Both the position numbers and the translations under genes were made by a program. Below, piece after piece: positions 1 to 45,357 of a DNA stretch of 64,000 nucleotides; position 1 is the stretch's first letter; each line of letters starts with the position of its first letter. The stretch is taken from assembly GCA_963713925.1 (NCBI GenBank), contig OY970212.1:1212274-1276273 (forward strand). The letters are read 5' to 3'. The stretch is from an uncultured bacterium. GTDB taxonomy: Bacteria; Babelota; Babeliae; Babelales; Vermiphilaceae. The notes under the pieces are model-generated. The model was not told the DNA's origin. It worked only from the letters and a program-made list of their open reading frames with translations, and did no database searches.

Positions 1-297
1 TTTAATTTCTTGCTCAACGTGCCACGCAATGATTTCCCCTTCACGATCGGGGTCAGGCGCTAAATAAATTTCATCGGCAGTTGAAGCAGCTTTGCAGATT
101 TCAGCAATCGTTTTCTCTTTGTTTTCTATCGGCACATACTGAATATCAATACCTTTTTTGGTGATAGAAACACCCGTTTCCTTGGACGGCAAATCCATAA
201 TATGCCCCATGGTGGACATAATCTTGAATTCTTTACCCAAGAATTTACTGATCGTTTTGATTTTTGCGGGAGATTCTACAATTAAAAGTTTTTTCAT
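1..297 (-). CDS. topA: DNA topoisomerase I, N-terminal TOPRIM fragment (gene runs off the window start)
   Basis: Not in the ORF track because it is open at the window edge. My minus-strand translation from the ATG (complement of 295-297) reads MKKLLIVESPAKIKTISKFLGKEFKIMSTMGHIMDLP...YLAPDPDREGEIIAWHVEQEIK. VESPAK, GHxxDLP and DPDREGE are TopA/TOPRIM N-terminal signatures. Confidence 0.85.
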   Translation of the reverse strand, partial: MKKLLIVESPAKIKTISKFLGKEFKIMSTMGHIMDLPSKETGVSITKKGIDIQYVPIENKEKTIAEICKAASTADEIYLAPDPDREGEIIAWHVEQEIK

Positions 298-27893: not shown

Positions 27894-29495
27894 ATGAAGC
27901 CACATACCCCTCTTGCACTTGTTATCCTCGACGGATTCGGCATTGCCGAACCCAATCCAGGCAATGCGGTAACCAGTGCAAAAACTCCCACTTTAGATCA
28001 ATTGATGAAAAACTATCCTCACACGCAGCTGAAAGCAAGCGGCAGCGCAGTGGGACTGCCTGATGGAGTTGTTGGCAACTCCGAAGTTGGACATATGACC
28101 ATTGGCACAGGACAGATCATTAAACAGGCGTTGACGATTATTAACGATGCAATCGCCGACGGATCCTTTTTTACCAATGAGCGGCTCATGCGTCCACTCA
28201 AACAGCTTGCGCTCAGTGGCAAGACTTCGCATATTATCGGTCTTTTGTCTGATGCCGGTGTACATGGAACCATGAATCATTTGATTGCCTATGCTCAGGC
28301 TGCTGAAAGTGCCGGCGTAAAAAAGATTGTCATTCATCCCATTTTAGATGGTCGAGATGTTCCACCCAAAAGCGCTGCACACTATTTGACCGATCTTGAA
28401 AAAGAATTGCAGAATATCCCTCATGCTCATATTGGAACTCTCAGTGGTAGATTTTATGCAATGGACCGCAATCGCAACTGGGATCGCACCTGCAAAACAT
28501 ATGAAGCACTAAAAACCCCAAATCTTTACCCAAATTTCACTCTGTTCCATTTGGGACCCGAACACAGTATGAGGGGGGTAAGTTCGTGGCAAAAAACTCT
28601 TGATGCCTGGTATGCCACTGGTGAAAGTGAAGAATTTCTTCCACCGATCACACTATCCCATTTTGTCATTGAATCGGGTGATGGTGTAATTCTGGCAAAC
28701 TTTCGCCCCGAGCGCATGCGGCAGCTTTATGACCTTTTGACTGGACAAGCGCCAACAAATTGCGCACAACCGACTGTTAACCTTTCTTTCTGCCTGACAG
28801 CCGTCAAATATACGGACTCAGATACTTCTGCATTGTTTGAAATTGAAAAACCATCCGTGCTTCACTTGTCCGGGCGTTCAGCTCGGCAAGTTACGCAGGA
28901 CAGGACAACCCTCAAGCAGGAATTAAGCAAAGCAGGTTATTCGATCTTCTCAATTGCGGAAACTGAAAAATACGCACATGTCACCTATTTTTTTGATGCG
29001 GGAAACGATAAACCATACCCTCATGAGCAACAGATATTAATTCCTTCAATAAAAGCGCGAACATACATTGATTATCCGTGCATGTCTGCCCCTGAAATCA
29101 CGCAGGCTGTGATTCATTCACTTGAAAACAACCCGGCCGATTTTTATTTGATTAACTATGCAAATGGAGACATGGTTGGCCATTCAGGCTCATTGCCCGC
29201 AGCAATCAAAGCAGTCGAATGTTTGGATAAGCAAATAGGAGATTTGTATCGTGAATTTGTGCAAAAAAGAAATGGCGTCTTAATTATCACTGCCGATCAT
29301 GGCAATGTCGAAAAGATGATCGATGAACATGGCAATCCTGACACTGCACATACGACAAATGATGTTCCATTCATTATTGTGAGTAAAAACAGCAAACAAT
29401 ATTCGCTTGATGGTTTGCATGGACTTTCCGATATTGCACCATTTATTTTGCATATGTTAGACCTAACAACTCCAAAGATAATGCAAAGGACCTGA
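27894..29495 (+). CDS. gpmI: 2,3-bisphosphoglycerate-independent phosphoglycerate mutase, with two repeat-derived in-frame segments
   Basis: iPGM blocks LVILDGFGI, GNSEVGHMTIGTG, ILDGRDVPP, FYAMDRNRNWDR, IAETEKYAHVTYFFDAG, MVGHSG and ADHGN. Segments at 28527-28559 and 28853-28904 match intergenic repeat families. Confidence 0.95.
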   Translation: MKPHTPLALVILDGFGIAEPNPGNAVTSAKTPTLDQLMKNYPHTQLKASGSAVGLPDGVVGNSEVGHMTIGTGQIIKQALTIINDAIADGSFFTNERLMRPLKQLALSGKTSHIIGLLSDAGVHGTMNHLIAYAQAAESAGVKKIVIHPILDGRDVPPKSAAHYLTDLEKELQNIPHAHIGTLSGRFYAMDRNRNWDRTCKTYEALKTPNLYPNFTLFHLGPEHSMRGVSSWQKTLDAWYATGESEEFLPPITLSHFVIESGDGVILANFRPERMRQLYDLLTGQAPTNCAQPTVNLSFCLTAVKYTDSDTSALFEIEKPSVLHLSGRSARQVTQDRTTLKQELSKAGYSIFSIAETEKYAHVTYFFDAGNDKPYPHEQQILIPSIKARTYIDYPCMSAPEITQAVIHSLENNPADFYLINYANGDMVGHSGSLPAAIKAVECLDKQIGDLYREFVQKRNGVLIITADHGNVEKMIDEHGNPDTAHTTNDVPFIIVSKNSKQYSLDGLHGLSDIAPFILHMLDLTTPKIMQRT

Positions 29496-44306: not shown

Positions 44307-45152
44307 ATGAAGCATATGGTAGTAGTAATACTGTGCGCGTTATCGACAATAACGCCCGCAACATGGTGTATATATAACAAAACTCATTTTGTTATTGACC
44401 AGTCAGGAAATCCGGTAAAAGATGCTCAGTTGTCCCAGGGTTTGGATTCAATTGAACGCCCTCGAGAAAAAAAGAACAGTTCATATCGCGTCTTTTTCAG
44501 CCCAAATGATGATGTGCGCGCCCGCCTGATCGATTTGATCAATCACGAAAAGAAATCTATTAAAGTTTCTATTTTTATGTTCACCGATAAGGATATCGCA
44601 CATGCGCTCATTAGTGCGGCGCAACGGAATGTTCAAGTGGCTGTCATTGTTGATGGAGCAGCGAGCGCTGATCGATTTAGTAAAATTGAAATGCTCAAGC
44701 GTTCCGGCATTGATGTTTTTGAATATAAACCGCAAGCCCCAACCGGTATCAACAATGATATCATGCATCACAAATTTGTAATTTTTGGATCAAATCAAGA
44801 TGATTGCTCATTGCTCTGGACAGGATCATGTAATTTCACACGATCTGCATCAGTGCGTAATCGAGAAAATGTTATCGTACTTGATGATACGGGTGTAATA
44901 GAACAATTTGAGCAAGAATTTGAGCGTCTGAAGCAAATAATTAAAAAATCATCATCCATGCTTCACTTGTCCGGGCGGTCTTACCCAAGTTCCGTTTCAC
45001 TACACTTGGGGCCCAAACTTCAGCTCGGCCCTGTGCGCCATAGCTCCTACGAGCGGCGGCGTAAAGTTACGCAGGACAGGCAAGCTACACGACAAGTTCG
45101 AAAGGCAAGCAGGATAACCAAGCGATATATCAGAAATAATGAAATATGTTGA
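44307..45152 (+). CDS. secreted single-HKD phospholipase D-family protein (Nuc-like), with repeat-derived C-terminal extension
   Basis: Signal peptide. IKVSIFMFTDKDIAHALISAAQRNVQVAVIVD. HKD motif MHHKFVIFG...GSCNFTRSA. The last ~65 codons (from about 44954) are a family repeat copy translated in frame. Confidence 0.8.
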   Translation: MKHMVVVILCALSTITPATWCIYNKTHFVIDQSGNPVKDAQLSQGLDSIERPREKKNSSYRVFFSPNDDVRARLIDLINHEKKSIKVSIFMFTDKDIAHALISAAQRNVQVAVIVDGAASADRFSKIEMLKRSGIDVFEYKPQAPTGINNDIMHHKFVIFGSNQDDCSLLWTGSCNFTRSASVRNRENVIVLDDTGVIEQFEQEFERLKQIIKKSSSMLHLSGRSYPSSVSLHLGPKLQLGPVRHSSYERRRKVTQDRQATRQVRKASRITKRYIRNNEIC

Positions 45153-45324
45153 TAGGACAATAAAAATGAGCCAAGTTGAGACGGGAATTTCAGCAGGCTT
45201 CATTACTACAATTCCTTCTTAGCTCGATCATAATCTATTCGCCTTTTTTAAAAAAAGCAAGAAAAAAATCATTCATCGATTTTTGCTTCTATAACGAATA
45301 TCCGGTAAAAAATACGTAAAAAAA

Positions 45325-45349
45325 AGGGGAAATGTTTTTCATTTCCCCT
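45325..45349 (-). terminator. Rho-independent terminator of the ankyrin gene
   Basis: AGGGGAAATG-TTTTT-CATTTCCCCT. On the minus strand it is followed by a T8 run. Confidence 0.8.
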
Positions 45350-45357
45350 CTGCAACT

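What the first reader, a model, noticed from the sequence alone, without database searches (positions are those of the whole stretch)
44954..45152. C-terminal ~65 residues of the PLD-like protein are a translated repeat element
The HKD domain is complete by ...FEQEFERLKQIIKKS. From 44954 the ORF runs into sequence built from dispersed repeat modules. The run CATCCATGCTTCACTTGTCCGGGCG is shared with gpmI at 28853. CTTACCCAAGTTCCGTTTCACTACACTTGGGGCCC is a hairpin of the CCCAA..TTGGGGCCC type. AAGTTACGCAGGACAGG is also shared with gpmI. The result is a basic, low-complexity tail (LHLSGRSYPSSVSLHLGPKLQLGPVRHSSYERRRKVTQDRQATRQVRKASRITKRY...). The insertion seems to have displaced the original stop codon.
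Basis: seen in the sequence. Interest (0 to 1): 0.6.

Follow-up and report, generated by a model that had tools for sequence, protein, structure and literature searches.

The report
Repeat element translated inside PLD tail
A 126-base, three-hairpin selfish repeat sits in frame inside the C-terminal tail of a secreted PLD/Nuc-like enzyme of a Dependentiae bacterium and adds about 41 residues, much as Rickettsia palindromic elements do; the gene's last 22 codons and its stop codon look original.

Summary
It covers about 44953-45086, which is residues 218-258, or 41 aa. It does not cover all 65 tail residues.

The insert has three nested parts. A-type arms are identical to the in-frame gpmI copy. 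A 'CCCAAGT..ACTTGGG' B hairpin sits in the loop of A. A C hairpin lies next to it.

The same composite follows the tRNA-Gly and tRNA-Pro genes directly after their CCA ends. Half of this genome's tRNA/tmRNA genes carry an A-type trailer there.

None of the best 150 homologues, from 1.84 billion representatives, matches the insert. With the 41 aa removed, the protein aligns end to end with its two closest homologues. One homologue's tail matches the post-insert tail (shuffle p about 0.002). Another ends in the same [IV]-Cys.

So the stop codon was most likely not displaced. This is an internal in-frame insertion into an ancestral, fast-evolving basic tail.

B (41 nt) and C (34 nt) would each shift the frame; only together (75 nt) do they keep it. 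The composite therefore probably arrived as one unit.

This genome has at least three more such sites: gpmI twice and an acyl-CoA ligase. The behaviour is RPE-like, in a new phylum and a new repeat family. The mobilising enzyme is unknown, and no expression data were available.

The parts
44307..45152 (+). ORF of the secreted single-HKD PLD/Nuc/Zucchini-like protein, 281 aa, stop TGA at 45150-45152
   Evidence: ORF list. Pfam PLDc_2 E 7e-28, residues 74-208. PDB sequence hits to mitochondrial cardiolipin hydrolase 4ggj (1e-13), Nuc 1byr (7e-12) and NucT 6ehi. AF2 core pLDDT above 90, N-terminal helix 2-13.
44526..44930 (+). PLDc_2 (HKD) domain, residues 74-208
   Evidence: conserved columns H154, K156, GS.NFT.SA, N.EN in alignment A1
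44953..44977 (+). A-left arm of the inserted element. The CCA at 44956-44958 directly precedes TGCTTCAC.
   Evidence: 26/26 identical to the intergenic copy at genome 401348-401373 and 24/25 to gpmI. Nearly all A-type copies are preceded by CC[AG].
44978..45018 (+). B hairpin module (41 nt; stem CCCAAGT/ACTTGGG) nested in the apical loop of A. Encodes SYPSSVSLHLGPK.
   Evidence: 122 genome hits, covarying stems; consensus fold; 92% identical to genome 872505-872551
45019..45029 (+). A-mid segment TTCAGCTCGGC, the 3' arm of the apical A stem CCGGGC/GCTCGG
   Evidence: present in gpmI and in all short A copies
45030..45063 (+). C hairpin module (34 nt; GCGCCATAGCTC..GAGCGGCGGCG)
   Evidence: 91% identical to genome 1185307-1185349. 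Occurs at a different position in copy 1102k and in tandem at 703k. Folded pairs.
45064..45086 (+). A-right arm (AAGTTACGCAGGACAGG + CAAGC), which closes the basal stem with A-left
   Evidence: 17/17 identical to gpmI 28888-28904; basal stem in RNA and DNA folds
45087..45149 (+). Native (ancestral) basic C-terminal tail, residues 261-281 (TRQVRKASRITKRYIRNNEIC)
   Evidence: no repeat hits; native GC; aligns with the tails of P0002 and the G013 orthologue
28852..28904 (+). Short (A-only) copy of the same element in frame in gpmI, same orientation and frame (LHLSGRS..VTQDR)
   Evidence: absent from 11 Dependentiae orthologues
28525..28561 (+). B hairpin in frame in gpmI (LYPNFTLFHLGP), same frame as the B module of the PLD insert
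   Evidence: nhmmer hit at 1240798-1240834, E 8e-6; sequence

Best explanation
A composite, non-autonomous palindromic repeat of about 126 nt has inserted in the sense orientation and in frame into the 3' part of the PLD/Nuc-like gene. Its layout is A arms, with a B hairpin nested in the A loop and a C hairpin next to it. The insertion point lies between the last helix of the HKD domain and an ancestral basic C-terminal tail. The element is tolerated for three reasons. First, only 2 of its 6 frames lack stops, and it sits in one of those two. Second, its length is a multiple of three, so the native last ~22 codons and the native stop are still used. Third, it lies in a fast-evolving, structurally unconstrained tail outside the catalytic domain. 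It adds 41 residues rich in S, L, R, H, G and P, with net charge +6. The first half is predicted disordered. The second half is predicted to extend the terminal helix. The element belongs to a genome-wide modular hairpin family whose A-type members normally sit directly after the CCA end of tRNA and tmRNA genes. Shown here: the repeat homology, its absence from homologues, and the homology of the tail that follows it. Inferred: that the composite arrived as one unit, because B (41 nt) or C (34 nt) alone would break the frame. Also inferred: that mobilisation is by a single-strand, hairpin-recognising enzyme of the IS200/IS605 or REP-RAYT type acting 3' of a CCA. No effect on enzyme function has been shown. 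The default reading is a near-neutral passenger segment.
For: The repeat modules are real and not chance matches. The whole insert is 78% identical over 118 nt (E 2e-18) to the trailer of tRNA-Gly c[30178,30253], and E 8e-15 to that of tRNA-Pro c[662208,662283], with the same A/B/A/C/A order. Insert GC is 58%, against 40% in the core and 36% in the post-insert tail. None of the 16 closest proteins, none of the orthologues in 40 relatives and none of the best 150 of 9,527 hits among 1.84 billion representatives aligns beyond about residue 230. With the insert removed, alignments become end to end and the tails match. The gpmI copy uses the same orientation and frame and is absent from 11 relatives. 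An acyl-CoA ligase carries a further 14-aa hairpin insert that 6 relatives lack. Of the element's 6 frames, 2 are open. AF2 gives pLDDT below 50 for residues 224-241 and a helix at 247-279. The B hairpin is depleted in coding DNA: 25 of 122 hits lie in long ORFs, although long ORFs cover 85% of the genome.
Against: The nucleotide boundaries of the insert cannot be fixed to the base, because no close relative gives an empty site (nearest homologue 51% aa identity). 'Exactly 3n' therefore rests on the protein-level tail homology. That homology is significant for only one homologue (p about 0.002) and is merely suggestive for two others. A 22-codon open stretch after a frameshifting insertion would arise by chance in roughly 20% of cases in DNA of this composition (my estimate). 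No intact transposase was found; only a ~30-residue Y1_Tnp remnant is present.
Confidence: 0.78

Rival explanations
1. The element landed at or just before the original stop codon, or shifted the frame, so that the whole 65-residue tail is new, including the 22 residues after the repeat, which would be read-through of former 3' UTR.
For: Some homologues do end right after the domain, for example P0003 ...QLKRSIVSS. The post-insert stretch is AT-rich, which fits either UTR or coding DNA. The insert boundaries are uncertain by a few bases.
Against: The closest homologues have 35-43-aa basic tails, and the post-insert tail aligns with them to the last residues: p 0.002 for P0002, and a shared terminal [IV]-Cys with the G013 orthologue. 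The shared repeat spans in gpmI (53 nt) and PLD (128 nt) differ by exactly 75 nt, and both sit in the same frame.
Confidence: 0.15
2. The segment is not translated as annotated. Either the gene is a pseudogene or an assembly error at a repeat, or the strong hairpins terminate or attenuate expression, so that the real product ends near the domain.
For: The element folds into a three-hairpin structure (-47.5 kcal/mol as RNA). There are no expression data.
Against: The ORF is intact through the element. The fold z-score is only -1.8. The same element is read through in the essential glycolytic gene gpmI and in the acyl-CoA ligase, where truncation would destroy conserved downstream domains. The assembly is a single 1.32-Mb contig.
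Confidence: 0.05
3. The tail is an ordinary conserved C-terminal domain of this PLD subfamily, and its resemblance to repeats is coincidental.
For: None beyond the open frame.
Against: No homologue matches it. There is DNA-level homology to intergenic and tRNA-trailer repeats.
Confidence: 0.02

Closest known systems
Rickettsia palindromic elements (RPE-1 to RPE-10; Ogata et al. 2000 Science 290:347; 2002 Genome Res 12:808, as summarised in PMC10969869)
   Same: Hairpin-forming dispersed repeats of about 100-150 nt in a reduced intracellular bacterium. They insert in frame into unrelated housekeeping genes, add a recurring peptide, and lie in loops or termini compatible with the fold.
   Different: Different phylum (Dependentiae). 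No sequence relation is claimed or was tested. The element here is modular and nested (A+B+C). The family's usual home is directly 3' of tRNA/tmRNA CCA ends. In-gene copies are few (about 5-7 seen) next to the intergenic ones.
IS200/IS605-derived PATEs and REP/BIME-REPIN elements mobilised by Y1 (HUH) transposases/RAYTs
   Same: Hairpin-based elements without obvious target duplications. They have a fixed short sequence on the 5' side (here CC[AG] in about 44 of 48 A-type copies), covarying stems, and nesting and clustering of modules.
   Different: The genome has no intact Y1 transposase, only a remnant at 735855-735944. No strand bias relative to replication was evident by eye, and this was not tested formally. 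REPs are extragenic almost by definition.
Intragenic MITE fusions in other bacteria (ERIC, BOX, Correia, Anabaena MITEs; review PMC10969869)
   Same: Small non-autonomous repeats that can form in-frame fusions with host ORFs.
   Different: Classical MITEs have terminal inverted repeats plus target-site duplications. No duplication is visible here, and the inverted termini are imperfect.
Nuc (pKM101) / NucT / Zucchini-mitoPLD single-HKD PLD-family enzymes
   Same: The host protein has one PLDc_2 domain with the HxK motif, its size is close to theirs, and it has a signal peptide like Nuc.
   Different: It has a basic C-terminal tail, and the repeat-encoded 41-aa segment is not found in any solved or sampled relative.

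Membership tests
RPE-like protein-coding palindromic elements (functional class) | Dispersed multi-copy repeat able to fold as a hairpin or palindrome | tested here: met
   copies; folds, with 6 and 3 pairs that keep pairing after changes on both sides
RPE-like protein-coding palindromic elements (functional class) | Inserted in frame in a conserved gene, absent from orthologues, with the host ORF continuing downstream | tested here: met
   PLD. gpmI. Acyl-CoA ligase.
Rickettsia RPE families proper | Sequence homology to RPE-1..10 | not tested
   No RPE reference sequences were on hand. Rfam gave no hit. The phylum is different, so membership is not claimed.
MITE | Terminal inverted repeats | tested here: inconclusive
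   Imperfect: GCTT..CTTGTCC / GGACAGG..AAGC
MITE | Target-site duplication flanking the element | tested here: not met
   No direct repeat flanks the PLD, gpmI or intergenic copies. Instead CC[AG] sits on the 5' side only.
IS200/IS605-PATE / REP-RAYT | Fixed short target or guide sequence 5' of a hairpin end, with no duplication | tested here: met
   CC[AG] precedes nearly all A-type copies, whether next to a tRNA or not
IS200/IS605-PATE / REP-RAYT | Cognate Y1 (HUH) transposase encoded in the genome | tested here: not met
   Only a fragment matching positions 2-31 of 121 of PF01797, in a decayed frame
PLD superfamily, single-HKD Nuc/Zucchini-like | PLDc_2 domain above the Pfam cut-off, with the HxK motif | tested here: met
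   97.5 bits against a cut-off of 27; H154 and K156 invariant in A1; PDB hits

The most novel reading that the evidence does not exclude
The A-type hairpin may be a mobile element that targets CCA. tRNA and tmRNA 3' ends would be its safe landing sites across Dependentiae: the exact 48-nt form occurs after CCA in 10 other genera. When it lands after a CCA triplet inside a gene (the PLD copy starts right after TCA TCC A), it can be kept as new protein sequence. Composite A+B+C units would then move as one piece and would be a recurrent source of de novo peptide segments in these reduced genomes.
Probability: 0.3. Interest if true: 0.7.

Novelty: new member of a known kind. Interest (0 to 1): 0.45.

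Why it matters
In-frame survival of selfish palindromic repeats in protein genes is best known from Rickettsia. This finding shows the same thing in an unrelated phylum of obligate intracellular bacteria. The case is clear: a nested three-module element, with the native terminus kept. It also ties the coding insertions to a hairpin family that otherwise sits directly after the CCA end of tRNA genes. In practice, it tells annotators that 41 residues of this secreted nuclease/phospholipase-like protein are repeat-derived. Those residues should not be treated as a domain, and they should not be used for homology or targeting predictions.

Tried and rejected
Dependentiae is inferred from a homologue's source name, BH09DEP1, and from earlier scan notes.
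- Rfam gave no match, either at gathering threshold over the whole window or at E<=1 around the insert. A known RNA family is therefore rejected.
- A BLAST of the composite against 40 relatives from other genera gave only three weak partial hits. There is no empty-site or shared-insertion comparison at the DNA level.
- An intact RAYT/Y1 transposase was sought, and only a remnant was found. Other transposase families were not searched.
- Fold energy alone is weak evidence (z -1.6 to -1.8). The structure rests on comparison between copies instead.
- Tail homology to P0017 and P0021 alone was not significant (p 0.59 and 0.17).
- A loose right-arm motif count was too noisy (76 hits against 35 in the reversed-genome control). 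It was replaced by the strict motif and by the pattern search.
- Frame preference is not significant. All three sense B copies inside genes use the YP..LHLGP frame, which would happen by chance about 0.11 of the time.

Full report
**The gene.** The ORF at 44307-45152 (+) encodes 281 aa. It starts 18 nt after a TamB-like gene. Pfam places one PLDc_2 (HKD) domain at residues 74-208, with E 7e-28 and 131 of 132 model positions matched. The closest solved relatives by sequence are mitochondrial cardiolipin hydrolase/Zucchini (4ggj, 1e-13), Nuc of pKM101 (1byr, 7e-12) and NucT (6ehi). The window is bases 1212274-1276273 of a single 1.32-Mb contig with 40.8% GC. One homologue's source name (BH09DEP1) and earlier scan notes point to Dependentiae/TM6.

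**Checking the observation.**
- The 25-mer recurs in gpmI at 28852-28876 with one mismatch.
- The 17-mer recurs exactly at 28888-28904.
- Neither match is expected by chance; shuffles gave 0.

A BLAST of 44940-45160 against the whole genome finds further copies of each piece:
- The left arm is 26/26 identical to an intergenic copy at 401348-401373.
- The hairpin plus middle segment is 92% identical to 872505-872551.
- The next segment is 91% identical to 1185307-1185349.

Genome self-BLAST puts 2.8-5.4% of the genome in short dispersed repeats. Of 280 repeat intervals, 225 lie outside long ORFs. Repeat coverage in the PLD gene runs only from about 44955 to about 45080. The last 66 nt match nothing else in the genome. 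GC is 39.6% in the core, 58.2% in the insert and 36.4% after it; GC3 is 0.35, 0.66 and 0.26. So the repeat-encoded part is residues 218-258 (41 aa, give or take 2), not all 65.

**Anatomy of the insert.** The short A form, as in gpmI, is a stem-loop. Its apical stem is CCGGGC/GCTCGG and its lower stem is CTTG/CAAG plus TGC/GCA. The PLD copy has the same arms, with two additions:
- a 41-nt B hairpin (stem CCCAAGT/ACTTGGG) inside the apical loop;
- a 34-nt C hairpin between the apical and lower 3' arms.

B is the commonest module in the genome, with 122 nhmmer hits, 67 of them at E<0.01. Its stem covaries: AGT/ACT, AAT/ATT and AGC/GCT. C occurs at a different position in the copy at 1102k and in tandem at 703k, so it behaves as a separate module. 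RNA and DNA folds of the PLD copy give a three-way structure closed by GCTT..CTTGTCC / GGACAGG..AAGC. The z-scores are modest (-1.8 and -1.6).

The short and composite forms differ by 41 + 34 = 75 nt. Either module alone would shift the frame; together they do not. I therefore infer that the composite entered the gene as one unit, or that its arms were later homogenised by conversion against the gpmI/401k subfamily.

**Where the family normally lives.** ARAGORN finds 39 tRNA/tmRNA genes. Twenty of them are followed, from the base after the encoded CCA, by an A-type element: G(G/T)CT(T/A)CGC ... GCTACGCCTGGC. The trailers of tRNA-Gly c[30178,30253] and tRNA-Pro c[662208,662283] carry the full A/B/A/C/A composite. 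They match the PLD insert at 78% over 118 nt (E 2e-18) and at E 8e-15. Copies away from tRNAs are also preceded by CC[AG] almost without exception. That includes the PLD copy (TCA TCC A|TGCTTCAC) and the gpmI copy. The exact 48-nt short form after CCA occurs in 10 of 40 other Dependentiae genera, and the reversed-pattern control gave 0. The PLD-type composite itself is essentially confined to this genome. An earlier scan note (e1-3622570) describes the same CCA-abutting family in another Babeliales genome. I found that note only after I had seen the pattern here.

**Is the tail new, or is the insert internal?** No homologue covers the insert.
- The 16 closest proteins stop matching at or before residue 226.
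- Orthologues in all 40 relatives match only up to residues 208-240.
- The best 150 of 9,527 hits among 1.84 billion representatives match no further than about residue 230.

However, the family does have C-terminal tails. After the domain, 124 homologues carry 6-63 residues, with a median of 22. The window's tail is 75 aa with the insert and 34 aa without it. The nearest homologues have 35 aa (P0017, 51% identical) and 43 aa (P0002, P0021).

With residues 218-258 removed, BLASTP runs end to end: P0017 28-238 of 240, P0002 4-257 of 258, and the G013 orthologue to its last residue. With the insert present, the alignments stop at 218-226. RKASRITKRYIRNNEI aligns with KKATRYGKRALRSIKI of P0002 (score 32, shuffle p 0.0016-0.0018). 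ATRQV aligns with ATTQV directly after the domain helix. The G013 orthologue ends ...AADVC against ...NNEIC here. The tails of P0017 and P0021 are not individually significant (p 0.59 and 0.17).

On balance the last ~22 codons and the TGA are ancestral, and the element is an internal in-frame insertion. I put this at about 0.8. A read-through origin for 22 codons remains possible; by my estimate an open stretch of that length would arise by chance about 20% of the time.

**Why it is tolerated.** Only 2 of the 6 frames of the PLD copy are open, and 3 of 6 in the short form. The gpmI and PLD copies use the same orientation and frame (LHLSGRS...VTQDR). The B modules in PLD, gpmI site 1 and an OPT-like transporter all read YP..(S/T)L.H.GP. 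With so few cases this is not statistically significant. AF2, with a 15-sequence alignment, gives a confident core. The domain's last helix spans 195-221. Residues 224-241 have pLDDT below 50, and a helix at 247-279 spans the rest of the insert and the native tail. The insert has net charge +6, and so does the native tail.

**The same behaviour elsewhere in the genome.**
- The gpmI A copy adds 14-16 residues that 11 relatives lack.
- An acyl-CoA ligase (934058-935695, minus strand) has a 14-aa antisense B insert that 6 relatives lack.
- A peptidase-like ORF (820700-821719, minus strand) ends in three tandem antisense B units. Its paralogue and its one homologue lack them.

B hits are depleted in long ORFs: 25 of 122 hits, although long ORFs cover 85% of the genome.

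**Mechanism.** The features are a hairpin element, no target duplication and a fixed CC[AG] on the 5' side. These are closest to IS200/IS605-derived PATEs or REP/RAYT systems. However, only a decayed ~30-residue Y1_Tnp fragment is present, at 735855-735944. The mobilising enzyme is therefore unknown, and this step is inference.

**Literature.** The library holds no description of palindromic or MITE-like repeats in Dependentiae. RPE biology is taken from PMC10969869.

**Limits.** There is no read, transcript or peptide evidence and no empty-site allele.

Noticed in passing
G000 genome-wide; e.g. C1:30038-30177(-), 405104-405148(-), 418384-418428(+), 662062-662207(-): Twenty of 39 tRNA/tmRNA genes are followed, from the base after the encoded CCA, by an A-type hairpin element (G(G/T)CT(T/A)CGC...GCTACGCCTGGC). 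Copies away from tRNAs are also preceded by CC[AG]. The exact 48-nt form occurs in 10 of 40 other Dependentiae genera.
   Followed up: partly
G000:C1:934058-935695 (-), insert near 934260-934302: An acyl-CoA ligase carries a 14-aa in-frame insert (GSHAERQRSMGDQL) encoded by an antisense B hairpin. Six relatives lack it.
   Followed up: yes
G000:C1:820700-821719 (-): A peptidase-like membrane protein ends in three tandem antisense B-hairpin units (NTRVPSERSEIGY x3) running up to the stop. Its own paralogue (821824-822456) and the only homologue among relatives lack this tail. This could be a true repeat-made C-terminal extension.
   Followed up: partly
G000:C1:435221-436867 (+), near 436088-436123: An OPT-like transporter has a B-hairpin-like segment in frame (FYPHSTSLHVGP), in the same frame as in PLD and gpmI. 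It was not checked against orthologues.
   Followed up: no
G000:C1:735855-735944 (+): There is a decayed remnant of an IS200-like Y1 transposase (HRLMIHLVWIPKYRKRVLKGEV..., Pfam positions 2-31 of 121). No intact copy exists in the genome.
   Followed up: partly
window 45323-45351: A 12-bp GGGGAAATG/CATTTCCCC hairpin with T-runs on both sides lies between the convergent PLD and ankyrin-repeat genes. It is likely a shared bidirectional terminator, about 170 nt after the PLD stop.
   Followed up: no
alignment A1 / window 44766-44790: In this Dependentiae PLD subfamily the HxK motif reads HHKFVIFG/E, without the Asp of the classical HxK(x)4D. The change is conserved across homologues.
   Followed up: no
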